A program made the position numbers and the translations under genes. A DNA stretch of 64,000 nucleotides from Candidatus Moraniibacteriota bacterium (GTDB taxonomy: Bacteria > Patescibacteriota > Minisyncoccia > Moranbacterales > UBA1568). Below the pieces are notes generated by a model, which saw only the letters and a program-made list of their open reading frames with translations, searched no databases and was not told the origin of the DNA. Position 1 is the first letter of the stretch; the number at the start of each line of letters is the position of its first letter. The DNA lies in contig JBAXOD010000002.1 in assembly GCA_037133435.1 (NCBI GenBank), positions 23,545-87,544 of the forward strand. Reading direction: 5' to 3'. Below, piece after piece: positions 2,340 through 50,193 of this stretch.

Positions 2340-2768
2340 AGCGGGTGATGGAAATTTCGTCCTCGATGCCTGCGGGCATCTCGTAGTCCAGGGCAGCGCT
2401 GAATGCTTCCTAATTCGGTCGCATTCATCGACGCTCGACTATTCGCCTTCGCTCACGTCTCGCTTCTGCCCGTTCGATTCCCATCACCCAATTTTCTCCG
2501 AAAATTTGAGCAGGTGATGGAAATCCTCCTCGCTCCGACTCGGAGCCAGGGCGCTACACACAGAATGCTCGCTTACTCGCATTCGACTCGCGCCCTTCGA
2601 TTCCCACATGGACCGCGGGTGATGGAAATTTCGTCCTCGACGCCTGTTGGCGTCTCGTAGTCCAGGGCAGCGCTGAATGCTCCTATTCGTCGCATTCATT
2701 GACACTCAACTGCTCTCCGCCAACTGGCGGATTGCGTCTCGCTTCTGCCCGTTCGATTCCCATCACCA
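2340..2768. repeat. Three tandem degenerate units (~110-150 bp) each beginning GCGGGTGATGGAAAT and ending CGATTCCCATCACC, i.e. mimicking the 5' acceptor and 3' T-arm/acceptor of the adjacent tRNA-Gly
   Basis: Direct reading: unit starts at ~2340, ~2508, ~2619; ends share gtctcgcttctgcccgttcgattcccatcacc; 12-bp closing helix with one A.C mismatch. Confidence 0.6.
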
Positions 2769-2804: not shown

Positions 2805-2814
2805 CTTGCCTATG

Positions 2815-2887
2815 AGCGGGTGATGGGAATCGAACCCACCTCTCGACCTTGGAAGGGTCGCATAATAAGCCACTATACGACACCCGC
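2815..2887 (-). tRNA. tRNA-Gly (anticodon TCC)
   Basis: Manual fold: acceptor GCGGGTG/CACCCGC, anticodon stem CGACC/GGTCG, loop CTTCCAA, T-arm GTGGG-TTCGATT-CCCAT. Confidence 0.8.
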
Positions 2888-3750: not shown

Positions 3751-3856
3751 ACTCCTAATTCTTTATTCTTTATTCATCATCTAACGATTGTCGAGGCGCT
3801 CGGAATCGCTCAGGCATTCGCTGGGCGTCCGGCGTATGTCGGACGAACCAGGGCGG

Positions 3857-4025
3857 GTCTACCTCCCCTGCGGAGCCACGACCGTCCACTGGATGGTCGG
3901 ACACGAATCTTGTCGGGGCACCCGGAATCGGACCGGGACTACCTCCCCTTCGGGGCCACGACCGTCCATCGGGACGGTCGGATAACGTTCTTGTCGGGGC
4001 ACCCGGAATCGGACCGGGACTACCT
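3857..4025. repeat. Two tandem ~84-bp units, each = tRNA-Pro 3' half (cttgtcggggcacccggaatcggaccgggactacct) plus a GC hairpin spacer
   Basis: Exact 36-bp copies at 3909-3944 and 3990-4025; flanking spacers ccacgaccgtcca...ggtcgga also repeated. Confidence 0.7.
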
Positions 4026-4064
4026 GCTCCCAAAGCAGACGTACTACCACTATACTATGCCCCG
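3994..4064 (-). tRNA. tRNA-Pro (anticodon TGG)
   Basis: Manual fold of reverse complement: acceptor CGGGGCA/TGCCCCG, anticodon stem TCTGC/GCAGG, loop TTTGGGA, T-arm CCCGG-TCCGATT-CCGGG. Confidence 0.8.
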
Positions 4065-4090
4065 ACTATTACCCCGACAATAACGCTATC

Positions 4091-4126
4091 CCCAAAGCAG
4101 ACGTACTACCACTATACTATGCCCCG
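4091..4126 (-). pseudogene. Orphan duplicate of tRNA-Pro(TGG) 5' half (through anticodon loop)
   Basis: cccaaagcagacgtactaccactatactatgccccg identical to 4029-4064 but lacks 3' half. Confidence 0.65.
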
Positions 4127-4369
4127 CCAAATAATTTCAATTTTCTCTTTACGGACGAGGCTCGCCCTGATGGGCGACCCGACAATGAACTCGTCCCCGA
4201 AGCAGGCGTACTACTGACATTCATATCTCTTCCCAGTCTACGGACTCTCCGGGAAAAAGCAATCCCGCCTCCTGAAAGAGGCGGGACGGCCCTATCTTTT
4301 ATTTCGTGCAGTACGGAACCCGCCAATGGAAAACCGTCCCTCCGACGGAATCCCGCGAATACTCGCGTA

Positions 4370-19899: not shown

Positions 19900-19987
19900 T
19901 TATTCTCCTCCGAGTGTTCCCTGTTTACTGTTTACTGTTTACTGTTCATTGTTGTCAGTTGTCAGTGGTTAGTTATCAATCAAATAC

Positions 19988-20049
19988 GGAGAGATGACCG
20001 AGTGGTTGAAGGTACCGCTCTCGAAAAGCGGCAGGCCCGAAAGGGCCTC
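19988..20049 (+). pseudogene. 62-nt 5' fragment of tRNA-Ser(CGA) (acceptor through first half of T-loop), exact duplicate of 20391-20452
   Basis: ggagagatgaccgagtggttgaaggtaccgctctcgaaaagcggcaggcccgaaagggcctcgagggttcg identical in both copies; diverges inside T-loop. Confidence 0.75.
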
Positions 20050-20122
20050 GAGGGTTCGTCCGGCATACGCCGGACGCCCCGCGCATGCGGGGCGAATCCC
20101 ACATTTAAGGAGAAGGCTGCAT

Positions 20123-20386
20123 ATGTTCTATGTCTATATCCTCAGAAGCAAGAAAGACAATGACTTCTATATCGGGTCAACCGGAGATTTAAAAAGAAGA
20201 ATGAAAGAACATAATCGCGGAGTAGTGGAATCAACAAGACACAGACGACCTCTTGAACTCCTATGCTATGAAGCGTACAACTATAAAGAAGAAGCTCAAG
20301 CGAGAGAGCGTTTTCTAAAAAGCAGTGACGGAAAGAAAGATTTACGGAAACGATTGACTCGCAGTTTGGAAAAAAAGGAAAAATAA
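20123..20386 (+). CDS. Small GIY-YIG nuclease-domain protein (YhbQ/UPF0213-like)
   Basis: MFYVYILRSKKDNDFYIGSTGDLKRRMKEHN = GIY-YIG motif; AAGGAG SD 8 nt upstream of ATG at 20123; 87 aa. Confidence 0.75.
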   Translation: MFYVYILRSKKDNDFYIGSTGDLKRRMKEHNRGVVESTRHRRPLELLCYEAYNYKEEAQARERFLKSSDGKKDLRKRLTRSLEKKEK

Positions 20387-20390
20387 GTAC

Positions 20391-20477
20391 GGAGAGATGA
20401 CCGAGTGGTTGAAGGTACCGCTCTCGAAAAGCGGCAGGCCCGAAAGGGCCTCGAGGGTTCGAATCCCTCTCTCTCCT
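20391..20477 (+). tRNA. tRNA-Ser (anticodon CGA)
   Basis: Acceptor GGAGAGA/TCTCTCC, anticodon loop CTCGAAA, long variable arm CAGGCCCGAAAGGGCCTC, T-arm GAGGG-TTCGAAT-CCCTC. Confidence 0.85.
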
Positions 20478-20486
20478 CACTGAAAG

Positions 20487-20529: not shown

Positions 20530-20665
20530 AATGGGAAAAAGGGATTCGAAAGCCGGACTGCTAGCAGGCAGGAGGCGGGGTCGCGACCTCGAGCACGGCC
20601 TTCGGAGGCCGGACGCTCGAGAGTTGTGACCGAGTCCCTCCCTTTCCTCAAAAGCGAATGACCGT
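20530..20665 (+). ncRNA. Structured tRNA-Ser-derived element 1 (14-bp closing helix GGAAAAAGGGATTC/GAGTCCCTCCCTTTCC); candidate small RNA or pseudo-tRNA
   Basis: 3' end gagtccctccctttcctca resembles tRNA-Ser 3' end; sits between two terminators. Confidence 0.3.
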
Positions 20666-20706
20666 CCCGATCATATTGGGGCGGTTATTCGTTTCTTGTG
20701 AGATGG

Positions 20707-20790
20707 AAGAGGGATTCGAAGGGATATGGAAATGTGAACGATTTCACGTTTCCATGTCCCCGGCCCGCAGGGGAATCCCTCCCTTTCCTC
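20707..20790 (+). ncRNA. Structured tRNA-Ser-derived element 2 (closing helix GGAAGAGGGATTC/GAATCCCTCCCTTTCC, internal 13-bp hairpin ATGGAAATGTGAA/TTCACGTTTCCAT)
   Basis: Direct reading of complementary segments; immediately followed by terminator. Confidence 0.3.
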
Positions 20791-20796
20791 AACGGA

Positions 20797-34817: not shown

Positions 34818-34888
34818 CGGAGTGTGGTATAGTGGTATTACGCACGATTCGGGTTCGTGTAATCCGGGTTCGATTCCCGGCACTCCGA
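34818..34888 (+). tRNA. tRNA-Pro (anticodon CGG)
   Basis: Acceptor CGGAGTG/CACTCCG, anticodon stem CACGA/TCGTG, loop TTCGGGT, T-arm CCGGG-TTCGATT-CCCGG. Confidence 0.75.
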
Positions 34889-35026
34889 CAAAATAGCACC
34901 GGAAATATACGGTTCTACGGGTTTACGAAGTATCCGGCGCATGCCGGACGATTATAGATTTCTATCCGGCTACCTCATATCCACGCGACAAGCATACCGT
35001 GGTTTCCCGGTACTCCGACGAATCAG

Positions 35027-35374
35027 GTGGTACAAAAAACGCATAAACATACCTCGCCTATGAGGATTCTCGTCAATAACCCGTCCGAAAACGCGCTCAC
35101 ACTCATGCGGAGGGCGGGATACGTCTTTCAACGCAAGGAAGGCGACGAGATGAGTTTCGTCCGAGAGTTCGCCCGGTCGGGTTTCCCCCGGTTTCACGCG
35201 TATGTCAGGACCGAAACGGTCACTATAACGGTCAATTTCCATCTCGATGCGAAACGCGAGACCTACGGTGAATCGACGCGGCACCACGGTGAATACGAAG
35301 ATGACGGTCCTCTCGCGGAAGAGGCGAAACGGCTCTTGAAACTTTTCGGCGAAAGGGCGTCCGTGGTGAAATAA
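35027..35374 (+). CDS. Hypothetical small protein between tRNA genes
   Basis: 115-aa ORF, no recognisable motif; could be spurious. Confidence 0.3.
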   Translation: MVQKTHKHTSPMRILVNNPSENALTLMRRAGYVFQRKEGDEMSFVREFARSGFPRFHAYVRTETVTITVNFHLDAKRETYGESTRHHGEYEDDGPLAEEAKRLLKLFGERASVVK

Positions 35375-35382
35375 ACGCCGAT

Positions 35383-35472
35383 GCCGAGGTGGCGCCCGCC
35401 CGCAACGCTTCGCGTAGCGATGCGGGCAGGAAACTGGTAGACGCACCAGGTTTAGGTCCTGGCGGGAGCAAG
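35383..35472 (+). pseudogene. Partial tRNA-Leu copy: acceptor+D-stem, 36-nt GC hairpin inserted in D-loop, anticodon arm, no T-arm
   Basis: gccgaggtggcg[cccgcccgcaacgcttcgcgtagcgatgcgggcagg]aaactggtagacgcaccaggtttaggtcctggcgggagcaag vs intact copy 12 nt downstream. Confidence 0.7.
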
Positions 35473-35483: not shown

Positions 35484-35570
35484 GCCGAGGTGGCGAAATT
35501 GGTAGACGCACCAGGTTTAGGTCCTGGCGGGAGCAATCCCTTGGGAGTTCGAGTCTCCCCTTCGGCACCA
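35484..35570 (+). tRNA. tRNA-Leu (anticodon TAG), CCA encoded
   Basis: Acceptor GCCGAGG, anticodon loop TTTAGGT, long variable arm, T-arm GGGAG-TTCGAGT-CTCCC, 3' ACCA. Confidence 0.85.
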
Positions 35571-35714
35571 TACGAAACCACCCTGCACCGTACGGTGCAG
35601 GGTGTTTCGATTCATCTTTCTCCGTCTTCCGCTTCGCCATACCGTATCCTTGGCGCAGGCGGATTCCCAACTCGTTAACACGTGAACTCGTTAACTGAAG
35701 AACTTACATGTTAC

Positions 35715-38312
35715 CTATCGCCTATACGCCGACCTCCGATCATCAGGCTCGGAAGCGGGAATCAGGGAAGAAACGAAACCGACCGAGAACAGGAGGAATG
35801 CCGAGGTCAGGATCATCCTGACGGCGAAGACGACGAACGGGGGCACGTATTTCGACACCGCTGCGAAAAATCGGTTCGATCCGGACGAGGCGACGGTCAG
35901 ATCCTCGTTCGCTATCGCTTGAACACGTACGTCACTTACGACCTTCGTTTCCGAGGAATCGATGACGTTGACTCCCCACAGATCTCGGAGTGCCACACGT
36001 TTCTCGTTCGCTTGGACGATTTTCCCCGTAAAGTTGACGAAGTTCGCGTCACCGATCGTGCCGGGTTTCGGAAGCGTATACGCTATCTGCATATCCGCGG
36101 ACTCGTCCACTGTTTTGCCGTCCACCGTCCAGACATGCGACAGCAGATACTTCTTCGCGTATCCCGGAATGATCGACGCCTTCATCGGTATGACGGTGCC
36201 GCTCGCGAACCGTTCGAAAATTTCGTCACTATGCTCGTCGTTCTTGGTACCGTCAAGTTCCGTAAACGTGCCGACGTATCGCGGCCAGACGGCACTCGTG
36301 TCGTTCGATTCGAGCAGGATTTCCGGATCGACGACCTGATAGTTCCGCGAAAGGGACAACGCCTTTCCCGTCGCTACATTCACCGCTTCCATCCGTACGG
36401 TGTACGTTTCTCCCGGCTCGCCCGTTACCGCGAAAAACGCGGTGTTCCCGAGCCCTCCCGAAGGACAGTCGACGGACGAGACGGTCGAGGAACAGTTCAG
36501 TGCGGCACCGTTTATGGTCCATCTGAAATTCTTCCACTCGGTAGAAGTCGCGTTGCGGAGCGTGACCCCGAGAATCTCGTTTTTCATGACGCGACACGAG
36601 ATACGGTTCAGGTTCTCCTTCGCTTCGGCCGCGGTGGAAGGCGTCGGATAGTACATGTCACAGATCGGATCAATCGAGGTGTCAAGCGCCACCTGTGCCG
36701 CGCCGGATGTGGACGCGGTCGCGGTGGTCGTATACGTGGAGATCTTCTTGTCCGTATTGGTGACTTTCACGACCACGTCGCTTTTCCCTTCGGGTCGGGC
36801 GATCATGTTCTGCGCAACCGTACTGCCGCCCGACGCCGTCGCGGTATAGGTGGTCGCGGAATAATTCTCTCCCGCCCGGGTCGTGATACGCATGTAGACC
36901 GGATCGGTATTCGCGAACGTACCAAGAATCTCCGGCTTCATATCAAGCAGCACTTTGATGGAAGTCAGGCCGTTCTGCGAGATCGCCTGGGTGGTGGAAT
37001 TCGGGAGCGTGATGAGCTTTCCAGCCGTGAGTAAACCCGCCGCCTCAAGCTGGGCCGTGACGTCCTTCCAGCCGTCGACCGGATTATTGCTCAGCTCGAC
37101 GGTCCACGAATAGGTGATTTCTTCGGGACTTTTGGATGAATTGTCGACCGAAGCCGTAGCAGTGACCATGTCCCCGCCGATTCCTTCCGTCTTGTCGTTC
37201 ACCGGATTATCCGGCGTCGCGGAAACGGAGAGCTCGAGTTTCTTGGAAGAACCGGATTCAGAATCCATCGGATCGACCAGGTTCATCTCGAGACAGTCAT
37301 CGATATCCCCTTTCGTCAGGCTGGTCGTCAAAAACGTGACCGGATACCCGTGTACCGTCTCTATATAGCTCCCAGGATTCTTGATGGGGCACTTCTTGTT
37401 CTTCGAGAATCCCCACTGGACCATCATCGTCGCGTCATCATGCTTCGTCGCGACCATCGACGATCCCTCCACGAGCACCCCGACTTTGTCTCCGGTCTGA
37501 TAGTTCCACTTGAAGGTATCCCGACCCAGGCCGACCGCGTTCGCCTCGTCCTTGTTGCCGTTACCGCTCGTATCCGGATCGTGCGGGTTGGTCCCCCATG
37601 CCTTCTCGTCCGACAGTCCGAATGTTCCGTCCGTTCCGCCGACCTGACTCCCGTTCAATTCCGGGAACAAGTGGACGCATGCCGGCAACTCATAAAAATG
37701 TCCGCTGACCGGATCGTGCATGTAGCACCAATCCTTCTTCGTATCGACGACGAGCTCCCCTCCGAAATGAGCCTTGTATCCGTCGTTATCATCGTCAGTG
37801 TCGTATTTGAATCCGTTACTGTCGGCATTGTCCGTAGCGAGGATTCGCGAAGCGGCGACTTTCCAATCATTGACGGTCACCGACCCGTCGTTGTCCGAAT
37901 CACAGTAACTCGCCTGACCGGAAGAACCGCCGAGTTCGCATCCGTTCCGCTTCAGATACCAGGTGTAATAAAGCTGTGACTCGCTGGCATTGGAAAAATA
38001 GGTCGGGAACGCCTTCGCGCTGAGTTTCTGCCCGTCCTTGGGATCCGAAGGGCTGAACGCAATCGTCACCTCGGGCGCGTTGCCCTTGTTTTCGGACACG
38101 TTGAACGACTCCCCGTATCTGCGTATGACCGCGGGGTCGAGATGATACCGCTGTTCAATGGCCGACGCTATCGAATCGGCACTCGGGAAATCCAAAGCGA
38201 CCACCTTTTCGGAAATGATGAAACCGGACAAGAAAATCACGAAAGCGACGGGAATCATTCGTCTTCCCGATTGTTTCCTCATTGGATGCATAGCGTTGAA
38301 TTTATTTTTCAT
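35715..38312 (-). CDS. Large secreted/surface protein (865 aa), Thr/Ser/Asp/Asn-rich, N-terminal signal-anchor
   Basis: Start MKNKFNAMHPMRKQSGRRMIPVAFVIFLSGFII; no catalytic motifs; composition of adhesin-like proteins. Confidence 0.5.
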   Translation of the reverse strand: MKNKFNAMHPMRKQSGRRMIPVAFVIFLSGFIISEKVVALDFPSADSIASAIEQRYHLDPAVIRRYGESFNVSENKGNAPEVTIAFSPSDPKDGQKLSAKAFPTYFSNASESQLYYTWYLKRNGCELGGSSGQASYCDSDNDGSVTVNDWKVAASRILATDNADSNGFKYDTDDDNDGYKAHFGGELVVDTKKDWCYMHDPVSGHFYELPACVHLFPELNGSQVGGTDGTFGLSDEKAWGTNPHDPDTSGNGNKDEANAVGLGRDTFKWNYQTGDKVGVLVEGSSMVATKHDDATMMVQWGFSKNKKCPIKNPGSYIETVHGYPVTFLTTSLTKGDIDDCLEMNLVDPMDSESGSSKKLELSVSATPDNPVNDKTEGIGGDMVTATASVDNSSKSPEEITYSWTVELSNNPVDGWKDVTAQLEAAGLLTAGKLITLPNSTTQAISQNGLTSIKVLLDMKPEILGTFANTDPVYMRITTRAGENYSATTYTATASGGSTVAQNMIARPEGKSDVVVKVTNTDKKISTYTTTATASTSGAAQVALDTSIDPICDMYYPTPSTAAEAKENLNRISCRVMKNEILGVTLRNATSTEWKNFRWTINGAALNCSSTVSSVDCPSGGLGNTAFFAVTGEPGETYTVRMEAVNVATGKALSLSRNYQVVDPEILLESNDTSAVWPRYVGTFTELDGTKNDEHSDEIFERFASGTVIPMKASIIPGYAKKYLLSHVWTVDGKTVDESADMQIAYTLPKPGTIGDANFVNFTGKIVQANEKRVALRDLWGVNVIDSSETKVVSDVRVQAIANEDLTVASSGSNRFFAAVSKYVPPFVVFAVRMILTSAFLLFSVGFVSSLIPASEPDDRRSAYRR

Positions 38313-38356
38313 CGTCCGTATGATAATGATTCCGATGGCACGTGAAACTGAAGACG

Positions 38357-39022
38357 TCACCTGCCAAAAACGAGAAACGCCACGTCGGCAAGAAACAGCG
38401 TCAGCCAGCCGGAAAACCAGGAATAATAGATCGAGCGGGTACGATGCGCGACGAACCCGGACGCGAATGCCGCAAGAATCATCGGCGTGCTGTTCCAACC
38501 GATACCGCCGAATGCCGCCAAAAACGCGACGAAAATTCCTCCTTGCAGAAAAACCGCGAGGATGCCGGTCTTGGACAACCACGAAAGCATGATGAGGCCG
38601 CGGAAAAACACCTCAAAGAGAACGGAGACGATACCGACCAGTACCACCTCATACAAAACGAAATAGAGGAACGAATCCTGAATGAAGTTTGGCAGCGAAT
38701 ACGTCACATCGGTCCCTCCGATAGCAATCACCGAGTACCAGACGACGAGAAACGGGATGACCGCGACCACGGCGGTCAGAAAACCGTATTTTTTCACGCT
38801 CCCCTGAAAACCGATCGATGAAAGCGGCTCTTTCTCAACGAAAATCACGTAGAGGATAGGGAGACACAGGAGAAAGACGATCCCCAACACGCCGGCCTGC
38901 AGGGATTCGTCCATATTCGCGTCGGCCGGAAACAAGCGAAATGCGAGAAGCGTCGCCACGACAAACAGTCCCGTCGAGAGGAACCGCTTCATATCGAAAG
39001 CCAGAATAGGAGTCTCACTCAT
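38357..39022 (-). CDS. CPBP family intramembrane metalloprotease (CAAX protease-like)
   Basis: EVFFRGLI motif (EExxxR), multiple TM, TATAAT 12 nt upstream of chosen start MSETPIL. Confidence 0.65.
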   Translation of the reverse strand: MSETPILAFDMKRFLSTGLFVVATLLAFRLFPADANMDESLQAGVLGIVFLLCLPILYVIFVEKEPLSSIGFQGSVKKYGFLTAVVAVIPFLVVWYSVIAIGGTDVTYSLPNFIQDSFLYFVLYEVVLVGIVSVLFEVFFRGLIMLSWLSKTGILAVFLQGGIFVAFLAAFGGIGWNSTPMILAAFASGFVAHRTRSIYYSWFSGWLTLFLADVAFLVFGR

Positions 39023-39076
39023 AGCATTGCTTCCATTATAACGTTTTTTTTCAATCTTGAAAATTTCTGACAAAAT

Positions 39077-40147
39077 TTAGGCGTTCTTGATCTTGTTCTT
39101 GATGCGACTCAGAAGAAACGCGACCAGAAATGACTGAAGCGGGAAGACGGCGATGATCGGGATGCTCTCGATTACCGCCACGATCACAATGACACCGATA
39201 CGCTTTGCTAGTAATATGATTTTCTCTTTCGGCGGCAGTTTCCTCGTATTCTTGTCAAGTGCTATGATGATGATCTGTCCGATAACGAACGGTCCCGAAA
39301 TGAGTGTGGTCACCCCCGGAAGAAAGAAATCGAAAAAATCGGTCAGGTCGTCGATGCCGCCGAGCATGTAAATCAATAATTTTGATGTAAACGACAAATC
39401 TGAGGCGTTCGGATCATGCTGTGCTGTTCCACTCCCCTGCACGGTCACGTTCCCCGTCTGCCCCGATTTGCGTTGCTCTTCCCAGGACGGGTATCGGGTC
39501 GGCCGTCCTCCCATGGCTTCCGATGATTCTTCCGCATCCTCCTCATCCGATTCAGTAGTCACCGAATTCGGAACAAAACGCAGATTATTTGGAGATTCGC
39601 TATATCGGACATTCCGCTGTTTCGGCCGGGCTGTCGTCGATGCGGCTGGTTTCCCCGAAGCGGAGTTCGAGAGCTGCAAACTGTAATTCTCACGTGCTCG
39701 TTTCGTTTCGATCGCAAGCCGTGTCGCGTCCGGATTTCGATCTTGTTCGAGTTCAAGCTCATCCCTTAAAAGTGCACCAAAAGATTGTACATTCATATTC
39801 TCAGGCCGGTTCGCAGTCAATTCCGCGGGCGTTTCCGAAGTGGCGATACGGCGCTGCAGACGAGTACTCTCAGTCGCTCGTTTCTCGAGCATCGCACGCT
39901 GAACAGCGGCTGATTCCCGGTCACTGTCGATCGCGTCCGCTGTCAAAAGAGCGTCGGCCGCTACGACCGTACGGGCGATATTTTGTCGTGCTCCCGCGGC
40001 CTCATTCATCCTCCGTGCACGCAGGCCCGCAAGCATGCCCGACATACGTGCCGCATTCCGTGCGTTAGGCGAAATCACGGTCCGATCCGAAGCCGGCAAG
40101 CGGGCACGACCGTCGGGAGCTCCTGTATTTGGATTCGAAGTACTCAT
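39077..40147 (-). CDS. Hypothetical protein: ~260-aa disordered polar N-region plus C-terminal TM pair
   Basis: 356-aa ORF, C-terminal FVIGQIIIIAL and IGVIVIVAVIESIPIIAVF helices. Confidence 0.45.
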   Translation of the reverse strand: MSTSNPNTGAPDGRARLPASDRTVISPNARNAARMSGMLAGLRARRMNEAAGARQNIARTVVAADALLTADAIDSDRESAAVQRAMLEKRATESTRLQRRIATSETPAELTANRPENMNVQSFGALLRDELELEQDRNPDATRLAIETKRARENYSLQLSNSASGKPAASTTARPKQRNVRYSESPNNLRFVPNSVTTESDEEDAEESSEAMGGRPTRYPSWEEQRKSGQTGNVTVQGSGTAQHDPNASDLSFTSKLLIYMLGGIDDLTDFFDFFLPGVTTLISGPFVIGQIIIIALDKNTRKLPPKEKIILLAKRIGVIVIVAVIESIPIIAVFPLQSFLVAFLLSRIKNKIKNA

Positions 40148-40229
40148 AGGTACTGACTACGTATCACGAATCATTATGAGAGAGACCGAAAGGAGCGATA
40201 GAATCAAAAAGACGACCTCCCGTGACGGA

Positions 40230-40385
40230 AGACCGTCTTTACGCAGGTTCAGGGTTGTACCCTGAACCACGGGGTTTACAACCGATACCGAAGCTCTGAT
40301 ATGGAGAACCGACCTCCGGTAAGGTTCTGACACAGGGAGAGAAACATTTCGGAGCAGGGTACAACATTGCTCCAGTAAAGAATCG
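40230..40385 (+). repeat. Hairpin repeat family copy b: cgcaggttcagggttgtaccctgaaccac and ggagcagggtacaacattgctcc
   Basis: Matches 12071-12093 (inverted) and 49647-49673 / 49821-49843. Confidence 0.6.
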
Positions 40386-40432
40386 AGCTCTCATCCGCCA
40401 AACTGGAACGAAATATAAATTGGGAAATGGGA

Positions 40433-42769
40433 TCAATATCCCGCACCCGCGTCGAAATCGCGTTTGGCCTGTTCGATCTCAAGCAACTGCCGCGGATCCG
40501 TCGTAATGACCTGATCCTCGCTGTACGAAGCGATAACCTTGATCGCGACGTGTTTCGTCCCGGCGAAAAAGATTCCCTCTCCCACGTTCGATTCGAGCAA
40601 CAAGAACTTCTCGTGATCGGTCAGGTAAAAGAGATCCGCAATGAGATCAATCGAAGCCGGCGACTGTTTGAGGAGAAGCTGGATAGAGGAGTTTGTGACG
40701 ATCGGTTTACCGTAGCGTGACGCCATGAAATCGCCCACGTCCTGGGTGATGGTCGTCAGTCCCGCGAAGTACTTGCGGCACCGTTTCGCGATACCGAACA
40801 TGAATGCGGCGGCATCCTCGTTTTGCATCATGATCCACGCCTCGTCCACGACGATCAGCCGCTGTTTCATTTCCACGCGGATCTCGTTCCAGATGTACTG
40901 CAAGATGACGTACATCGCGATCGGCCGAAGCTCGCTCTCGAGGTCCCGGATATTGAAGACGATCATCTGCCGATTCAACGACACGTTTGTCTGGTGATTG
41001 AGGAACCCGCTGAAGACGCCCTCGGTATACTGTTCGAGCCGCGCCGCGAGCGATTCGGCACCTTCGACATTGCGAAGCACGGCATAGAGATCCGTCATGG
41101 TCGGGAACGATGCCGCGTCGAGAGAGCGGAAGTCCGACGATTCGGTGATGTCGCGGATGGCATATGTCTCGCGGATCGCACGGTCAAGGACGGAGTCCTC
41201 TTCCGGCGTCACCGCGCCGAGCATGAGGTGTAGCAATCCGATCAGGTTCGCGACATGACTGCGGAACACGCCCTGTTCATCTTCCGTCGCGGCGATTTTC
41301 GGAAGGTCGAACGGGTTCAGATGCGCGTCGGAGGCGAGCGAAATGTCGAGGAACGTCCCGCCGACCGTGTCGCACAGGTGCTTGTATTCCTGTTCCGGAT
41401 CGATGATGACGACGCTCGTCCCGAACATCATGGAACGCAGTATCTCGAGTTTGATGGTATAGCTTTTTCCGGCGCCGGATTTCGCGAAGACGACCATGTT
41501 GGCGTTTTCCATGCGGAACCGGTCGAACAGGACGAGCGAATTGTTGTGCCGGTTGATCCCGTAGAGTATCCCCTCGTTCGAGGACAAATCGGAAGACACG
41601 AACGGAAACGTGGTGGACAAGGGCGAGGTGTTCAGATTGTTCGCGATATCGAGCAGGTCCATGCCCAAAGGCCTCGTGGAGATGAATCCCTGATCCATCC
41701 GCAGCACGGCCTGCTTCGTGAAGACGAGCTGCGCCTCGAGTATGGACTCGATGTTTCTGGAAATGTCGTTGAGTGCCTTCTCATCGGCCGCATAGACGGT
41801 CATGTAGAGTCCGAATCGGAAGAATTTCTCCGTCCCCTGCTGCAGACGGTCGCGAAGATCCTGGATGTTCTCGAGTGCGGCTTCGAGCATAGGATCGCGG
41901 ACCTTGCCGCCTTCGGCCTCGATGCCGATCTGCGAACGGACGTGCGTCTCGGACGCACGCAACTCACGCATGATCTCACGCGTGTCGACCGGATGAATAA
42001 GGAAGCCGACGTCCATCGGGGCGTCGATATTCACGATCGGGGAAAACCAGTTCGTCCCGAGGTATTTCGGATACGCGATGACGAAATGCGTCCGCGCGAA
42101 CACGCTGCCGACATGGAAAAAGCTCGGTGACATGCGTATCGCCGGCGGTGCGATGAGATCCTTGAGACTCGCGACGCCCTTGCGATAGAGCTCTTCCGAT
42201 TCGGTGCTGCCATGTGAAGAAAATACGGAGGTCAAAAATCCGCCCTTGCCGCCGCCGGCCGATTTCTGCTTGGAGGAAGGCCGTTCGACCTCCGCCGAAT
42301 ACGGAATGACCTCCTCCTCGAAACCGGACGGGCGTGAGTAAGGTGCGGCTGATTCCGAACCAGGTGCGGGAATACGGGACGATTCCGCTTCGACAGCGGA
42401 AGGAAGAGGCTCTACCGTAACCGGCGGCGTATCAAAAGAACGCGCCGGCGCGGGTTCGGATGATGCCGGTTGCGACGACCACGAGGCATACGCGGGCGCC
42501 GCCGATTCCGCCACCGGGATCGGTGCGGGTACCGGAGTCGGTTGCACTGCGGGAGTGGCCGCGACCGGGGGCGTCGACACGACCGGAGCGTCGAAATACT
42601 TCGGCTCCGGCGCGGAAGCGGGAGTCGGGATCGGTGCTGGCGCGGGTGCGGCCGGAACGGGTGCCGGTCCCGAAGGAGATGCTGTACCGCCGCCGGCATC
42701 ACTTAATCCGAGCAGTTCCATGATGAGCGCTTTGCGCTGTTCCGGATCCAATTGTGCTGGTGTAGGCAT
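40433..42769 (-). CDS. VirB4/TrbE/CagE-family T4SS ATPase with ~180-aa Pro/Ala-rich N-terminal extension
   Basis: Walker A VVFAKSGAGKSYT, Walker B LIVVDEAW, CagE_TrbE_VirB N-domain block FHVGSVFARTHFVIAYPKYLGTNWFSPIVNIDAPMDVGFLIHP. Confidence 0.8.
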   Translation of the reverse strand: MPTPAQLDPEQRKALIMELLGLSDAGGGTASPSGPAPVPAAPAPAPIPTPASAPEPKYFDAPVVSTPPVAATPAVQPTPVPAPIPVAESAAPAYASWSSQPASSEPAPARSFDTPPVTVEPLPSAVEAESSRIPAPGSESAAPYSRPSGFEEEVIPYSAEVERPSSKQKSAGGGKGGFLTSVFSSHGSTESEELYRKGVASLKDLIAPPAIRMSPSFFHVGSVFARTHFVIAYPKYLGTNWFSPIVNIDAPMDVGFLIHPVDTREIMRELRASETHVRSQIGIEAEGGKVRDPMLEAALENIQDLRDRLQQGTEKFFRFGLYMTVYAADEKALNDISRNIESILEAQLVFTKQAVLRMDQGFISTRPLGMDLLDIANNLNTSPLSTTFPFVSSDLSSNEGILYGINRHNNSLVLFDRFRMENANMVVFAKSGAGKSYTIKLEILRSMMFGTSVVIIDPEQEYKHLCDTVGGTFLDISLASDAHLNPFDLPKIAATEDEQGVFRSHVANLIGLLHLMLGAVTPEEDSVLDRAIRETYAIRDITESSDFRSLDAASFPTMTDLYAVLRNVEGAESLAARLEQYTEGVFSGFLNHQTNVSLNRQMIVFNIRDLESELRPIAMYVILQYIWNEIRVEMKQRLIVVDEAWIMMQNEDAAAFMFGIAKRCRKYFAGLTTITQDVGDFMASRYGKPIVTNSSIQLLLKQSPASIDLIADLFYLTDHEKFLLLESNVGEGIFFAGTKHVAIKVIASYSEDQVITTDPRQLLEIEQAKRDFDAGAGY

Positions 42770-42773
42770 ATGT

Positions 42774-43460
42774 TTATCTTCCGGTCAGTTCCACCGACTC
42801 GATATTCTTGACCACCGACGACGTGAACAACGAAGGGTTGTACGAATTATACAAAAGCTCGATGACCTCTTCGGTACCCAAAAGCGTGGTCCGGACGCCG
42901 GTACCCATGAGTGCCGACGCGACCAGATCGGCGCGCTGGAACAGCTGGTTCTTGTACGTCTCGAACACCTCTCCGCCGATGAACGTCTGCTTGACCGGAT
43001 TGAATATGCCGCCCATCTTCGTGAAAAAACCGCCCTCTTTCGTCTCGGAAGGGGCGAACGGTACCACGACAAAGAACGATTTCGACATGATATTCGAGAC
43101 ATCGGTCAGACTCTTGATGAAATTCGCGTATTCCGAAATCTGGAACCGCAAAAGGTCATTCTCCTGGGTCTTTTCCTGTTGCTTGAGCTTCTCGAGATAC
43201 GGCTCGATGCGGAAACGGCGCGAGTGCACGATAATCTGGAGCGGAAAATCAAGCGAGTTGAGGAAATTCTGATACTGTATGATGATCGCATCCTGCTCGT
43301 CGGTCGATTTGAGGTCGAAGTTGATGGAAGACGCGAGCAGCACCGCCCGGATGGAGCCGTTGCGCAGTATCATGACGCCGTCGCGGACTTCCTCGACGTC
43401 CACGTACTTTTGTGTGCTCGCGGCGTCCGATTCCTTTTTGTTGTCGGTGATGCGTTCCAT
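42774..43460 (-). CDS. Hypothetical T4SS-associated protein; N-region resembles the extreme N-terminus of Gram-positive VirB4 (PrgJ/TcpF-type)
   Basis: DGVMILRNGSIRAVLLASSINFDLKSTDEQDAIIIQYQNFLNSLDFPLQIIV; 4-nt gap to VirB4 start. Confidence 0.4.
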   Translation of the reverse strand: MERITDNKKESDAASTQKYVDVEEVRDGVMILRNGSIRAVLLASSINFDLKSTDEQDAIIIQYQNFLNSLDFPLQIIVHSRRFRIEPYLEKLKQQEKTQENDLLRFQISEYANFIKSLTDVSNIMSKSFFVVVPFAPSETKEGGFFTKMGGIFNPVKQTFIGGEVFETYKNQLFQRADLVASALMGTGVRTTLLGTEEVIELLYNSYNPSLFTSSVVKNIESVELTGR

Positions 43461-43490
43461 AGTTTTCCGTGGTTGTGTGTTTTTCCTCCG

Positions 43491-43889
43491 CTATTTCCGG
43501 TCCACCGCCTCCGCTATGCGGCGTATCTCCGCTTCCGTGATCCTCCGCTCGGGCGCGACCGATCCGGTATCGATCTTTTTCGGAAGAGTCTTCTGTACTG
43601 GCTTCCCGAGCGGCCTTCGCCACATCATGACCTTCGGATTGAAGAGAAAAAAGAATCCGTAGATCACGAAAAGGAGGAGTGGCTGACCGTTCGGCCTGTA
43701 AAACGCGAGGAGACAGAAAATGATGATGATCGGTATGGAAACCAGGTAGATCGCGATGCCGTCACCGATGATGAACTTGGCGACCAGGATGGTCGTCCCC
43801 ATCCCGATCATCCACAAAAGTTGCTTCCCGGTGAGCGGTCCGGCGATCTTGTCTTCCACGTCGACAAATTGCGGTACGTTGAATATCAT
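43491..43889 (-). CDS. PrgI-family (VirB3-like) small membrane protein
   Basis: MIFNVPQFVDVEDKIAGPLTGKQLLWMIG N-terminus typical of PrgI; two TM helices. Confidence 0.6.
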   Translation of the reverse strand: MIFNVPQFVDVEDKIAGPLTGKQLLWMIGMGTTILVAKFIIGDGIAIYLVSIPIIIIFCLLAFYRPNGQPLLLFVIYGFFFLFNPKVMMWRRPLGKPVQKTLPKKIDTGSVAPERRITEAEIRRIAEAVDRK

Positions 43890-43946
43890 AGCACGGATTC
43901 GGAGATTATCACATTCAAAAACTTCGACTCACTCAAGGATACCATA

Positions 43947-45812: not shown

Positions 45813-45926
45813 ATTTGCGTTCCAATCTTTTCAACCTTTTTAGAAATAATTCGAACCATCTCCCCTTATGGGACCCTGCCCGCCGGAATTTTTTTCTCCG
45901 CCCAAGTTTCCACCTGTATTCCCATC

Positions 45927-48404: not shown

Positions 48405-48701
48405 ATCCTGAAGTCGAAATATTTGAAACCGGGCGCAACAATACGCGACATGATTATACTATAATTTTTGGAAAGAGAGAAACAGCAATAAGCAAGAGAA
48501 CATCTCACAAGTACGCCACAAGAGGACTGTCAATATTGAAACAAAAATTGAACCAGACTCTAAATTGTAGATATTGGAAATCTTTCCAACAAAACTAAAA
48601 TTATTGACCATGATAAGCAAAGCAACTTAAAAATAATGCGAATAAACAAAAAAAGAGAGGCCAATTGGTCTCTCTTGGAATTGATACCGTTGTCACAATA
48701 C

Positions 48702-49277
48702 CTATTGAGGCCGCGCATATGCCAAAATAGTATTATCAAAATAGTATTTCCGTTCCCACTCTTCCTCGACCGGACCATAATCCGTCCCATTTTCACTAAA
48801 TCGAGAAGAACTTCCATCACCGTAAAAAACAATTATCTCTGCTTTTAATTCGACTGGTATCACCAACTGCTCAATAGTATTATTTGTGATTCGGGCAACG
48901 TACCCGTATTTCACTTTCTCTACGCTCGCCCCAGTTGCCTTATGAAGTATATCGCCGATACTTGGATCAGGATTGACGTTATCGTCAGAAAGATATGAGA
49001 CAAGTAATGTGTTTCCGAACAGTTTGTGCGACAACTCAATATATTTCACCCCTCCGGTCAATTTGTTGTTCTTCCCTAAATGAAGCCTTTGTCCAGGAGG
49101 CGCACCACCAGATGAAACCAAAGTCTCTCCCCCCTGGCTCATTCCTGCCGAAACGATTGGCTGCGTGCCGTCATTTGCAGCACTGTTTCCATTGTTTTTA
49201 TTACTACTGCAAGCGCAGAGACCGACTATGCCCAAAAAAAAGGCAACTTGTACTAAATATACTAAAGATTTCTTCAT
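48702..49277 (-). CDS. Putative lipoprotein
   Basis: MKKSLVYLVQVAFFLGIVGLCAC signal/lipobox-like, 191 aa. Confidence 0.5.
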   Translation of the reverse strand: MKKSLVYLVQVAFFLGIVGLCACSSNKNNGNSAANDGTQPIVSAGMSQGGETLVSSGGAPPGQRLHLGKNNKLTGGVKYIELSHKLFGNTLLVSYLSDDNVNPDPSIGDILHKATGASVEKVKYGYVARITNNTIEQLVIPVELKAEIIVFYGDGSSSRFSENGTDYGPVEEEWERKYYFDNTILAYARPQ

Positions 49278-49479
49278 TTTACCCTCCTAAAAGGTTGTCG
49301 GGCCGAAAATGAACCCAGTTAAAAGATAACTGCATTATTTTTTTATAGATTTTCTTCCTGCTTCTGTTGTCAAAGGCGGAAGCACCTCCCGCCGGACTTT
49401 TGTCCATTGACCAAGAACAAATTCTCGGCATCAGACACCTCCCTTATACCATGTATTTTCAGACGAGTCAAGAGTCACG

Positions 49480-49860: not shown

Positions 49861-49937
49861 TGATACGCGATAGCGTAGCAAATGTAACTTTTCGAAAATA
49901 TCTCAAATTTGATAATACTGCTACAGGTTGCCAATCC

Positions 49938-50150: not shown

Positions 50151-50193
50151 TTGTTAGGAGTAAGTTGTGAGTGGTAAGTTGTCAGTCTGTCCC

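What the first reader, a model, noticed from the sequence alone, without database searches (positions are those of the whole stretch)
3857..4126. tRNA-Pro(TGG) embedded in duplicated half-molecules
Order on the + strand is: 3' half, a 45-bp GC hairpin spacer, 3' half plus 5' half (the intact gene), a 26-bp spacer, then an orphan 5' half. Both halves are exact 36-bp copies broken at the anticodon/variable region. Integrase target duplication normally copies only the 3' end, so an orphan 5' half is unusual. This suggests unequal recombination, a permuted or split tRNA ancestry, or repeated excision/integration at this gene.
Basis: seen in the sequence. Interest (0 to 1): 0.55.

Follow-up and report, generated by a model that had tools for sequence, protein, structure and literature searches.

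The report
Nested tRNA-Pro gene with fossil halves
In a tiny uncultured (CPR, Moranbacteria) bacterium, an intact proline tRNA gene sits between the two halves of an older copy of itself; this is most likely a scar left by small selfish DNA cassettes that repeatedly insert into tRNA genes while bringing a replacement copy.

Summary
tRNA-Pro(TGG) lies on the minus strand at 4064→3993. An exact 36-nt orphan 5′ half lies 26 nt upstream and an exact 36-nt orphan 3′ half lies 45 nt downstream. Older degenerate copies lie further out on both sides. The region is base-identical in three other assemblies.

It is not an isolated oddity. In Moranbacteria relatives, many tRNA genes carry partial self-copies: 5′ parts upstream, 3′ parts downstream, broken in tRNA loops and marked by conserved GC hairpins.

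In six further genomes the flanking halves of tRNA-Pro are a different allele from the inner gene but pair with each other, and the inner gene is flanked by an inverted repeat. That indicates a gene inserted into an older copy.

A family of ~85-aa stand-alone GIY-YIG nucleases lies within 120 nt of a tRNA gene in 12 of 13 loci examined, eight of them directly upstream behind a partial or decayed copy of that tRNA. These include the orthologous tRNA-Pro (L029) and tRNA-Ser in this window.

A close sister strain lacks the downstream array, so the array is dispensable.

Best reading: an ORF-less relic of tRNA-targeting homing-like cassettes, comparable to phage T4 SegB. No integrase is adjacent, and split or permuted tRNA ancestry is not supported. 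The mechanism is inferred, not shown.

The parts
3993..4064 (-). Intact tRNA-Pro(TGG), the 'inner' gene. Its T-loop reads TCCGATT (C at position 55), unlike all relatives.
   Evidence: ARAGORN; Rfam 62.1 bits; comparison with about 60 orthologues
4091..4126 (-). Orphan 5' half a1 (tRNA positions 1-36), 36/36 identical to the gene. It ends one nucleotide 3' of the anticodon.
   Evidence: In the sister strain L100 the same orphan carries 2 substitutions.
4065..4090 (-). 26-nt spacer L1 (GATAGCGTTATTGT + CGGGGTAATAGT). Together with the last G of a1 (4091), its first part forms a 20-nt, 90% inverted repeat (4072-4091) with the gene's 3' acceptor strand plus trailer (3980-3999).
   Evidence: I1; predicted long helix. 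Identical in sister L100.
3945..3989 (-). 45-nt spacer R1 ('I'): 8-nt trailer, hairpin H1 (3959-3981, 9 bp), TGG, hairpin H2 (3945-3955, 4 bp)
   Evidence: structure kept in 6 copies from 5 genomes, 3 pairs with changes on both sides
3909..3944 (-). Orphan 3' half b2 (tRNA positions 40-72 plus trailer CAAG), 36/36 identical to the gene, including C55
3865..3908 (-). 44-nt spacer R2, a second copy of 'I', 37/46 identical to R1
3790..3864 (-). Degenerate third 3' part b3: AGGTAGACCCGCCCTGGTTCG | 37-nt double-hairpin insertion (3807-3843) in the T-loop | ATTCCGAGCGCCTCGAC. An old copy; the same insertion is found in the tRNA-Pro pseudo-copies of L004, L005 and L007.
   Evidence: insert 32/37 identical to L004's
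4178..4214 (-). Degenerate outermost 5' fragment a0 (GTAGTACGCCTGCTTCGGG, 17/19 identical to a1), followed by spacer L0 (12/18 identical to L1)
   Evidence: (D4)
4235..4262 (-). Candidate promoter TTGCTT-N16-TAGACT directly after the HU terminator (4262-4287). It is conserved in the window, L004, L005, L007 and sister L100, and would place all upstream fragments inside the tRNA transcript.
   Evidence: Read by eye; below the threshold of the scan. Inference.
19982..20058 (+). Same phenomenon at tRNA-Ser(CGA): a 77-nt, 99% identical copy of the leader plus tRNA positions 1-71, broken in the T-loop
20059..20094 (+). Conserved double hairpin (TCCGGCATACGCCGGA CG CCCCGCGCATGCGGGG CG) at the orphan/cassette junction. 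Its first 21 nt recur only at 3823-3843 in the window.
20123..20386 (+). 87-aa stand-alone GIY-YIG nuclease ORF; its stop codon lies 4 nt before the intact tRNA-Ser(CGA) at 20391-20478
   Evidence: Pfam PF01541, E=8.5e-18; UPF0213-type; homologues' contexts

Best explanation
The orphan halves are fossils of earlier tRNA-Pro(TGG) genes that were split when a short cassette carrying a complete replacement tRNA-Pro was inserted into the anticodon loop of the resident gene. The cassette consists of a left spacer, the tRNA, a trailer complementary to the left spacer, and two GC hairpins.

At least two rounds, plus later recombination among the resulting repeats, gave the layout a0[ a1[ GENE ]b2 ]b3. 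The intact gene is the newest arrival, and older pieces are pushed outward and decay.

This is one instance of a lineage-wide process in which tRNA genes are hit in their loops (T-loop, anticodon loop, D-loop) by small mobile cassettes that restore the tRNA they disrupt. The autonomous form carries a ~85-aa stand-alone GIY-YIG nuclease gene immediately upstream of the tRNA and a conserved double hairpin at its upstream end. The window's tRNA-Pro locus is an ORF-less relic or non-autonomous form.

Shown: the repeats, their orientation rule, the nested allele pattern, the inverted repeat specific to nested genes, the co-location of GIY-YIG genes and hairpins with tRNA fragments, and strain-level presence/absence of the array.

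Inferred: that the GIY-YIG protein cuts tRNA-gene DNA and drives the insertions by homing-like repair, by analogy with phage T4 SegB, whose recognition core is the tRNA TpsiC motif.
For: 1. Recurrence. 20 of 62 tRNA-Pro(TGG) genes and many other tRNA genes in relatives carry same-strand partial self-copies within 400 nt. All five tRNA genes of this window have fragments nearby.

2. Orientation rule. 0 of 30 downstream fragments reach the tRNA 5' end and 26 of 30 reach the 3' end. Only 3 of 46 upstream fragments reach the 3' end, all due to a neighbouring tRNA. Fisher p=9e-9.

3. Nesting. In L037, L047, L052, L051 and L085 the flanking halves differ from the inner gene, and in the first four they pair with each other 7/7 (5/7 as written in L085, which lacks one G). 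L037 and L047 share an identical inner gene (72/72) while the outer halves and spacers have drifted about 10%. L052, from the same clade (RNase Y 89-91% identical), has the same outer allele but a different inner gene, different breakpoints and a different inverted repeat. That indicates independent insertions.

4. Inverted repeat. Leader/trailer complementarity is confined to nested genes. They occupy the top 5 of 58 genes, with dG from -17 to -26 kcal/mol, while about 50 non-nested genes have z near 0.

5. Not simple tandem duplication. The orphan's leader and the gene's leader share 8/26 positions. The halves are 36/36 identical while spacers R1 and R2 are 37/46 identical (p=0.004).

6. Spacer hairpins. 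H1 and H2 are conserved in 6 copies from 5 genomes across two clades at about 69% RNase Y identity. 95% of cells are paired, against 40-55% when the partners are slid. Three pairs have compensatory changes.

7. GIY-YIG link. All 7 tblastn hits in about 1 Mb lie 8-120 nt from a tRNA gene; a rough chance estimate is about 5e-10. One is 12 nt upstream of the orthologous tRNA-Pro in L029, inside a nested arrangement. In 5 of 6 further homologue loci the layout is [5' part of tRNA X] + double hairpin + GIY-YIG + intact tRNA X. These include Falkowbacteria and a Smithellaceae contig.

8. Double hairpin. The module occurs almost only at tRNA-fragment junctions. It sits in the T-loop of b3 at this locus. 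The tRNA-Ser copy in this window and the tRNA-Pro copy in L004 are 35/37 identical.

9. Dynamics. A sister strain with 94-97% nucleotide identity in the flanking genes lacks the 203-nt downstream array and the a0 block, but keeps a1-L1-GENE. L092 and L093 differ in the copy number of downstream units.

10. Precedent. SegB is a GIY-YIG homing endonuclease in a tRNA cluster. Its 27-bp site has an 11-bp core equal to the tRNA TpsiC stem-loop motif (PMC2330249). SegB-induced breaks cause tandem amplification of a tRNA gene plus segB (PMC13096335).
Against: - No GIY-YIG ORF lies at the window's tRNA-Pro locus, nor in the nested loci L037, L047, L052, L051 or L085. A trans-acting or lost nuclease must be assumed.
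- The protein is a catalytic domain only (87 aa, UPF0213-type). It has no DNA-binding domain like those of SegB or I-TevI, and no activity of this family on tRNA genes is known to me.
- The H1/H2 spacer differs in sequence from the double hairpin found next to the GIY-YIG genes.
- Random partial tandem duplication combined with selection for one intact gene would also produce the orientation rule.
- The sister strain shows that a 5' orphan can exist without a 3' partner.
- The alternating inverted and direct 3' fragments near tRNA-Gly and tRNA-Ser are not explained by nesting.
- All data come from metagenome assemblies.
- The L029 versus L084 comparison (21/27 identity at the junction) cannot tell insertion from deletion.
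Confidence: 0.55

Rival explanations
1. Purely local partial tandem duplications (replication slippage or unequal crossing-over between short repeats), with no mobile element involved. Duplications that span one end of the gene leave a 5' part upstream or a 3' part downstream. Selection keeps one intact gene, and the GIY-YIG genes are bystanders.
For: An 81-nt head-to-tail period on the 3' side. The orientation rule is also predicted by this model. Unit copy number differs between L092 and L093. The sister strain differs by a 203-nt block bounded by the repeated ...CGACAA ends, so recombination among repeats does act here.
Against: The 5' orphan is not preceded by the gene's leader (8/26 identical). 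Halves are 36/36 identical while spacers are 37/46 (p=0.004). In five other genomes the outer halves are a different allele from the inner gene, which duplication of one gene cannot give without later replacement. Inverted repeats flank only the nested genes. The breaks cluster in tRNA loops and carry a conserved hairpin module shared between different tRNAs and phyla.
Confidence: 0.22
2. Attachment-site duplications left by integrase-mediated integration of prophages or genomic islands into tRNA-Pro, followed by deletion of the elements. Elements carrying a 3' half would account for the downstream orphans, and elements carrying a 5' half for the upstream orphan.
For: tRNA genes are classical integration targets, and fragments from integrated elements are documented (PMC9897764). 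The break near the anticodon loop is a known integrase sublocation (my knowledge: Williams 2002). A tyrosine recombinase exists in the window at 50194-51177.
Against: No recombinase within +-6 kb, and the one present is 46 kb away. Only 26-45 nt separate the copies. None of about 60 orthologous loci contains a kb-scale insert between HU and the tRNA. No viral contig carries either half. Breakpoints vary among genomes (positions 26, 27, 33, 36, 55). This model needs one precise deletion per event.
Confidence: 0.05
3. The fragments are functional parts: a split or intron-containing second tRNA-Pro that is spliced at the RNA level, or exapted leader/trailer elements such as a promoter, processing signals, or decoys for a nuclease.
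For: The hairpins H1 and H2 show compensatory changes. The whole unit folds very stably, z=-5.1. A 10/12 sigma-70 match has its -10 hexamer inside the orphan 5' half. Insertions sit at loop positions reminiscent of archaeal tRNA introns (my knowledge).
Against: An intact gene is present. The orphans lack 3 nt of the anticodon stem. The sister strain lacks the whole downstream array and the -35 box of that promoter match, yet keeps the same gene. Outer halves decay at about the spacer rate in L037 versus L047. Many copies are truncated.
Confidence: 0.06
4. Assembly artefact (mis-join or collapsed strain variants).
For: All sequences come from metagenome assemblies.
Against: Identical sequence in three further assemblies from different samples and assemblers. 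The repeats (36 nt) are much shorter than the assembly k. Analogous arrangements occur in dozens of independent MAGs.
Confidence: 0.01

Closest known systems
Phage T4/T6 SegB, a free-standing GIY-YIG homing endonuclease in the tRNA gene cluster (PMC2330249; PMC13096335)
   Same: A GIY-YIG nuclease gene sits next to tRNA genes. The SegB target core is the tRNA TpsiC stem-loop motif, and here the T-loop is the commonest break and insertion site. SegB spreads itself together with adjacent tRNA genes, and its breaks generate tandem tRNA-containing repeats by recombination. It shows presence/absence polymorphism between close relatives.
   Different: SegB is a phage protein described as recognising a 27-bp site, and from memory it is a larger protein of roughly 220 aa. 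Here the proteins are about 85-aa catalytic domains (UPF0213-type) in cellular chromosomes of CPR bacteria and one Smithellaceae contig. The cassettes here leave orientation-consistent partial tRNA copies, a conserved double hairpin and nested genes, none of which is described for SegB. No activity has been shown for the proteins here. Sequence similarity to phage homing endonucleases is marginal (PHROG E about 4e-4 over the N-terminal 38 residues only).
tRNA-gene attachment-site duplications made by integrases of prophages and genomic islands (fragments reviewed in PMC9897764)
   Same: Partial tRNA copies flank an intact, restored gene. Repeated events can stack copies.
   Different: There is no integrase and no element body. 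Both 5' and 3' parts occur. Breakpoints vary, and the spacers are only 26-45 nt long.
Split, permuted and multi-intron tRNA genes of Archaea (PMC3218864)
   Same: The break lies next to position 37/38. Short GC-rich hairpin insertions sit in the D-, anticodon and T-loops of the pseudo-copies. There is complementarity around the junctions.
   Different: This is a bacterium, and an intact gene is present. The halves are incomplete (3 nt missing). The complementarity flanks the inner gene rather than joining the halves. No splicing endonuclease is known in these organisms, and the copies are truncated and decaying.
Group I introns in tRNA genes of Patescibacteria (PMC13011429)
   Same: Same phylum, with mobile insertions in tRNA loops including the T-loop.
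   Different: Those are ribozyme introns spliced from functional genes. Here the insertions are 20-45-nt hairpins or a whole tRNA gene, found in non-functional copies. Rfam finds no intron here, and the paper does not mention fragments or GIY-YIG.

Membership tests
Integrase-generated att duplication at a tRNA gene | Tyrosine or serine recombinase gene adjacent to one repeat copy | tested here: not met
   Neighbours within +-6 kb are RNase Y, HU, an FNR-like oxidoreductase, iPGM, ClpP, trigger factor, an acyltransferase and a GDSL lipase. The only recombinase in the window is at 50194-51177.
Integrase-generated att duplication at a tRNA gene | kb-scale element between the direct repeats, or in some relatives | tested here: not met
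   The spacers are 26 and 45 nt. No large insert is present at this site in about 60 orthologous loci. The halves are absent from viral contigs.
Integrase-generated att duplication at a tRNA gene | The repeat restores an intact tRNA and shares a fixed crossover point | tested here: inconclusive
   The gene is intact. The breakpoint is shared (about 37/41) in the window, L007, L037, L047 and L085, but differs in L052 (26/44), L051 (27/38), L029 (33/41) and L004 (55).
Free-standing GIY-YIG homing endonuclease cassette targeting tRNA genes (SegB-like) | GIY-YIG ORF adjacent to the tRNA gene concerned | tested here: not met
   There is no such ORF at the window's tRNA-Pro locus. It is met at the orthologous gene in L029 (12 nt upstream) and at tRNA-Ser in this window. 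The locus is therefore filed as a relic, not a member.
Free-standing GIY-YIG homing endonuclease cassette targeting tRNA genes (SegB-like) | The endonuclease cleaves tRNA-gene DNA at or near the insertion site | not testable with these tools
   Only indirect evidence: breaks and insertions cluster at the T-loop, anticodon loop and D-loop.
Free-standing GIY-YIG homing endonuclease cassette targeting tRNA genes (SegB-like) | Presence/absence of the ORF at the same site in related genomes | tested here: inconclusive
   L029 has the ORF. L084 and L026, with the same tRNA allele, do not. L084's leader aligns 21/27 with the ORF tail plus spacer (score 24; shuffles 13.6 +- 2.3). The direction of change is unknown.
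Free-standing GIY-YIG homing endonuclease cassette targeting tRNA genes (SegB-like) | Catalytic domain joined to a sequence-specific DNA-binding domain | tested here: not met
   The protein is 87 aa, with the GIY-YIG domain covering residues 1-71. Its nearest solved relatives are UPF0213 proteins 1zg2 and 1ywl.
Split or permuted tRNA gene | No intact gene; the halves are the only source of that tRNA | tested here: not met
   An intact 72-nt gene lies between the halves.
Split or permuted tRNA gene | The halves together make a complete tRNA, with complementary flanks that bring them together | tested here: not met
   Positions 37-39 in linear numbering (AGC) are missing. The spacer after the 5' half is complementary to the inner gene's 3' end and trailer, not to a leader of the 3' half.
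Simple tandem duplication | Contiguous head-to-tail units including flanks, with uniform divergence across the unit | tested here: not met
   The 3' side has an 81-nt period, but the halves differ at 0/36 positions and the spacers at 9/46 (p=0.004). On the 5' side the leaders share 8/26 positions.

The most novel reading that the evidence does not exclude
A previously undescribed class of minimal selfish elements exists in CPR bacteria and a few other lineages. Each is a ~85-aa domain-only GIY-YIG nuclease gene with a conserved double-hairpin end that inserts into the loops of tRNA genes (Ser, Gly, Pro, Trp) and carries the tRNA sequence needed to regenerate the target. Over time this process replaces tRNA alleles and leaves 'tRNA-within-tRNA' nests and hairpin-marked fragments around most tRNA genes. 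The tRNA-Pro locus of this window is an ORF-less product of that process, and its unusual C55 T-loop may be a cleavage-resistant allele.
Probability: 0.4. Interest if true: 0.75.

Novelty: new variant of a known kind. Interest (0 to 1): 0.6.

Why it matters
If this reading is right, several things follow.

- tRNA genes in the streamlined genomes of CPR bacteria would be continually overwritten by selfish cassettes that survive by restoring the essential gene they hit. That would be a cellular counterpart of the phage SegB system.
- It would explain why tRNA neighbourhoods in these genomes are littered with pseudo-tRNA pieces. These pieces can confuse tRNA annotation and binning.
- It would provide a route for horizontal replacement of tRNA alleles.
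- It would assign a biological role to the widespread but uncharacterised UPF0213-type mini GIY-YIG proteins.
- It gives concrete substrates for biochemistry: tRNA-Ser(CGA) and tRNA-Pro(TGG) gene DNA, and the double hairpin.

If the rival explanation (slippage) is right, the locus is still a clear example of how selection for one intact copy shapes duplication scars, but it would be of modest interest.

Tried and rejected
- **Viral attP search.** I searched for the exact 5' and 3' halves in IMG/VR and found none.
- **Metagenome scan with the 5' half.** Only two contigs were returned. One of them (L085) proved a useful nested case.
- **Rfam at permissive threshold.** No intron, riboswitch or sRNA family explains the spacers; only sub-threshold noise appeared.
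- **Is the H1 hairpin a dispersed repeat?** No. It occurs only next to tRNA-Pro.
- **Promoter inside the orphan half.** There is a 10/12 match, but its -35 box is absent from the sister strain. I treat it as probably fortuitous.
- **tRNA-Leu integrative element.** I looked for an att-type repeat near the recombinase and found none. Only an imperfect 23-nt repeat turned up, which I did not pursue.
- **Wider annotated context via the GIY-YIG protein.** Only a 2.4-kb contig was returned.
- **Literature.** Searches for UPF0213/YhbQ and for nested tRNA genes found nothing relevant in the held library.
- **Outer-half complementarity as proof of nesting.** I considered this and set it aside as proof on its own. 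Two independent half-duplications of an ancestral gene would also give complementary halves. It counts only together with the allele-replacement and inverted-repeat evidence.
Full report
**1. The observation**

The window encodes one intact tRNA-Pro(TGG), on the minus strand at 4064→3993 (ARAGORN; Rfam 62 bits). Read in the gene's own direction, the order is:

- a degenerate 5′ fragment a0 (4214→4196) with an 18-nt spacer
- an orphan 5′ half a1 (4126→4091, tRNA positions 1-36)
- a 26-nt spacer L1
- the gene
- a 45-nt spacer R1 with two GC hairpins (H1, H2)
- an orphan 3′ half b2 (3944→3909, positions 40-72 plus CAAG)
- a 44-nt spacer R2
- a degenerate third 3′ part b3 (3864→3790), whose T-loop carries a 37-nt double-hairpin insertion

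Both 36-mers occur exactly twice in the window, with 0 expected by chance. Tandem Repeats Finder reports an 81-nt period with 2.1 copies on the 3′ side. Three nucleotides of the gene (AGC) belong to neither half.

The 640-nt region is identical in three other assemblies from different samples and assemblers. A k=31-type unitig breaks inside the repeat. The repeat is therefore real and not a mis-join.

**2. Organism and neighbourhood**

The flanking genes are bacterial housekeeping genes: RNase Y, HU, an FNR-like oxidoreductase, iPGM, ClpP and trigger factor. A scan of one genome per species with RNase Y identifies the organism as a CPR bacterium of Candidatus Moranbacteria (best 79-81% amino-acid identity). 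It also returned 80 related loci. The order RNase Y–HU–tRNA-Pro(TGG)–…–tRNA-Gly(TCC) is conserved in about 55 of them.

No recombinase lies within ±6 kb. The only one in the window is 46 kb away. No viral contig carries either half.

**3. The locus is one case of a lineage-wide pattern**

I searched each relative's own tRNA-Pro against its flanks. 20 of 62 genes have same-strand partial copies within 400 nt. These copies are often 100% identical to the local gene, even though the gene differs between species.

The control showed that this is not specific to proline. Gly(TCC), Arg and Ser genes show it too. All five tRNA genes of this window have fragments nearby.

Over all tRNA genes the orientation is strict. 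Upstream pieces keep the 5′ end and lack the 3′ end, and downstream pieces do the reverse:

- 0 of 30 downstream fragments reach the 5′ end.
- 26 of 30 downstream fragments reach the 3′ end.
- Fisher p = 9e-9.

The pseudo-copies are broken, or carry short GC hairpins, at loop positions: T-loop 56/57, anticodon loop near 37/38, and the D-loop.

**4. Nesting rather than simple duplication**

The orientation rule alone does not discriminate between models. Partial tandem duplication plus selection for one intact gene predicts it too. Four further results do discriminate.

(a) In L037, L047, L052, L051 and L085 the flanking halves are a different allele from the inner gene. In the first four they pair with each other 7/7. 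For example, L037 has outer strands CGGGCCG/CGGCCCG and inner strands CGGGATG/CATCCCG. L037, L047 and L052 form one clade (RNase Y 89-91% identical) and share the outer allele. L052, however, has a different inner gene, different breakpoints and a different flanking repeat. These are therefore independent insertions into the same resident gene.

(b) Leader/trailer complementarity (a 10-16-bp extension of the acceptor stem) is found only around nested genes. These are the five most stable of 58, while about 50 non-nested genes have z≈0. In the window the equivalent 20-nt inverted repeat is 3980-3999/4072-4091.

(c) In the window, the orphan 5′ half is not preceded by the gene's leader (8/26 identical).

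(d) The halves are 36/36 identical, whereas the spacers R1 and R2 are 37/46 identical (p = 0.004).

In addition, the R spacer with hairpins H1 and H2 recurs in the same position in five genomes from two clades at about 69% RNase Y identity. In L007 it lies directly between a 5′ half and a 3′ half, so it occupies the anticodon loop of a pseudo-copy. Its pairing is maintained:

- 95% of cells are paired, against 40-55% when the partners are slid.
- Three pairs have changes on both sides.
- The covariation score exceeds all 500 shuffles.
- There are only six copies, some of them related.

**5. The GIY-YIG connection**

At tRNA-Ser(CGA) in this window, a 77-nt, 99% identical copy of the leader plus tRNA positions 1-71 is followed by a double hairpin. 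Next comes an 87-aa GIY-YIG ORF (Pfam E = 8.5e-18), and then the intact gene 4 nt after the stop codon. The first 21 nt of that hairpin recur only once in the window, inside the T-loop of b3 at the tRNA-Pro locus.

tblastn with the GIY-YIG protein against about 1 Mb of fetched sequence gave 7 hits. All lie 8-120 nt from a tRNA gene on the same strand, with a rough chance estimate of 5e-10:

- One is 12 nt upstream of the orthologous tRNA-Pro(TGG) in L029. There, a decayed 5′ fragment broken in the anticodon loop lies upstream, and a 3′ half lies downstream. This is a nested arrangement with the nuclease gene inside.
- L019 and L022 show [leader + tRNA-Gly 1-52 with hairpins]–GIY-YIG–[leader + intact tRNA-Gly].

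A database search found 192 homologues of about 80-95 aa, mostly from CPR. Of six that I examined in context, five repeat the layout [5′ part of tRNA X broken in a loop] + double hairpin + ORF + intact tRNA X:

- X is Ser(CGA), Ser(TGA) or Trp(CCA).
- The hosts are Moranbacteria, Falkowbacteria, another CPR contig and a Smithellaceae contig.
- In two of them, tandem hairpin + 3′-fragment units lie downstream, with copy number differing between two contigs.

The CCGGCATACGCCGG-type hairpin occurs almost exclusively at such junctions. The copy at this window's tRNA-Ser and the copy at L004's tRNA-Pro are 35/37 identical.

The protein is a stand-alone catalytic domain of the UPF0213 type (PDB 1zg2, 1ywl). 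It shows only marginal N-terminal similarity to phage and intron homing endonucleases.

**6. A natural experiment**

Contigs encoding the identical HU protein include a sister lineage, L100/L101. Its nucleotide identity to the window is 97.2% in HU, 94.3% in the oxidoreductase gene and 95.1% in the shared intergenic DNA.

The sister has the same inner gene, including the unusual C55 T-loop, and the same 26-nt spacer. Its orphan 5′ half carries 2 substitutions. It lacks the a0 block and the whole 203-nt downstream array: its gene's 3′ end abuts the sequence that follows b3 in the window, with …CGACAA at both edges.

The b3 insertion is shared with L004, L005 and L007 (32/37 identical with L004 and L005, 27/38 with L007), so it is old. 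The simplest reading is that the sister lost the array by recombination between the repeated 3′ ends.

Three conclusions follow. The arrays are dispensable. The orphans drift at about the neutral rate. The locus turns over on a strain-level timescale.

**7. Mechanism: what is shown and what is inferred**

Shown:
- the repeats and their orientation rule
- nesting with allele replacement
- inverted repeats specific to nested genes
- conserved hairpin modules at the junctions
- tight co-location of a GIY-YIG family with tRNA genes and their 5′ partial copies
- gain and loss of the arrays between strains

Inferred:
- The GIY-YIG nuclease cuts tRNA-gene DNA in loop regions. Because it lacks a DNA-binding domain, it may act as a structure-specific nuclease on extruded cloverleaf DNA.
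- Repair from a cassette-bearing donor installs the cassette, in a homing-like manner.
- ORF-less forms such as the window's [L1–tRNA–R1] are relics or non-autonomous derivatives.

The precedent is phage T4/T6 SegB. It is a GIY-YIG homing endonuclease in the tRNA cluster, and its 27-bp site has an 11-bp core equal to the tRNA TψC stem-loop motif. It spreads with neighbouring tRNA genes (PMC2330249). Its breaks cause recombination-dependent tandem amplification of tRNA-Tyr plus segB, with cleavage motif RAWTSGAAC (PMC13096335). By my reading, the reverse complement of that motif, GTTCSAWTY, is the T-loop consensus.

Weak points:
- Six of the seven nested tRNA-Pro loci, including the window, have no nuclease gene.
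- H1 and H2 differ in sequence from the double hairpin.
- The inverted 3′ fragments near tRNA-Gly and tRNA-Ser are unexplained.
- Nothing is known biochemically about this protein family.

**8. Comparison with known systems and novelty**

Integrase-type att duplication fails its defining tests: there is no recombinase and no element body. Split or permuted tRNA fails too, because an intact gene is present and the halves are incomplete. Simple tandem duplication fails on the 5′ side and on divergence.

The locus works most like a SegB-type homing system. It is not itself a member, because it contains no ORF. The associated proteins also differ from SegB in architecture and host.

I found no description of this arrangement in the searchable literature. 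The paper on group I introns in Patescibacteria tRNA genes does not mention it.

I rate it a new variant of a known kind. Confidence in the overall explanation is 0.55. The main rival is local partial tandem duplication without a mobile element (0.22).

Noticed in passing
window 19982-20478 (+): A complete GIY-YIG/tRNA cassette at tRNA-Ser(CGA). It consists of a 77-nt, 99% identical copy of the leader plus tRNA positions 1-71, a double hairpin in its T-loop (20059-20094), an 87-aa GIY-YIG ORF (20123-20386), and the intact gene 4 nt after the stop codon.
   Followed up: yes
window 20535-20792: Downstream of tRNA-Ser lie four 3'-end fragments, two direct (20632-20651, 20773-20792) and two inverted (20535-20550, 20698-20720). 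They come from a different tRNA-Ser allele (acceptor strand CCTTTCC, as in the gene of relative L086), which suggests past allele replacement. The inverted copies are not explained by the nesting model.
   Followed up: partly
window 3993-4064 and 3909-3944 (-): The tRNA-Pro(TGG) gene and its orphan 3' half have the T-loop TCCGATT (C at position 55, normally the near-universal U/pseudouridine). All of about 60 relatives have TTCGATT or TTCAATT. The sister strain L100 shares C55. This could be an allele that escapes a T-loop-recognising nuclease; that is speculative.
   Followed up: partly
window 35378-35471 (+): Upstream of tRNA-Leu(TAG) (35484-35570) lies a pseudo-copy: positions 1-11, then a 35-nt hairpin in the D-loop, then positions 12-53 (42 nt, 98% identical). 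It is preceded by a 104-aa ORF (35060-35374) with no family match.
   Followed up: partly
window 2456-2767: Downstream of tRNA-Gly(TCC) (2814-2887, minus strand) are alternating inverted and direct copies of its own 3' end. They include an exact 33-nt repeat at 2456-2488 and 2735-2767 (inverted relative to the gene) and direct copies at 2510-2524 and 2615-2629.
   Followed up: partly
window 34934-35019 (+): Downstream of tRNA-Pro(CGG) (34818-34889) there is a CCGGCGCATGCCGG hairpin (34934-34947), followed by a 3'-end-like fragment GGTTTCCCGGTACTCCGAC near 35000-35019.
   Followed up: no
window 4111-4140 (-): A sigma-70-like match (TTGAAA-18-TATAGT, 10/12) has its -10 hexamer inside the orphan 5' half (the D-arm sequence). 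The -35 box is absent in the sister strain, so the match is probably fortuitous. A conserved TTGCTT-N16-TAGACT at 4235-4262 is the likelier promoter.
   Followed up: partly
window 35581-51408: This may be a conventional integrative or conjugative island next to tRNA-Leu. It contains a VirB4/TraG-type ATPase (40433-42769), several large ORFs with no family match, low GC at 46-50 kb, and a tyrosine recombinase (50194-51177, minus strand) flanked by about 58-nt direct repeats (50033-50090 and 51351-51408, 90% identical). An imperfect 23-nt repeat lies at 35581-35603 and 49579-49601.
   Followed up: no
L092 vs L093 (Smithellaceae contigs), about 1860-2300: Downstream of tRNA-Ser(TGA) there is a tandem array of about 92-nt units (spacer, hairpins, then a 21-nt tRNA 3' end). 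L092 has 2 copies and L093 has 3, so copy number is polymorphic outside the CPR as well.
   Followed up: partly
L095/L096 1501-1755: One GIY-YIG homologue is not next to a tRNA gene. It sits between alaS and ftsA and is flanked by a 14-nt inverted repeat (CCCCCACACCAATT / AATTGGTGTGGGGG).
   Followed up: no
window 52777-57424: A cluster of three NUDIX-domain genes, an NrtR-type regulator and a nicotinate/nicotinamide phosphoribosyltransferase (NAD salvage). It is unrelated to the finding.
   Followed up: no
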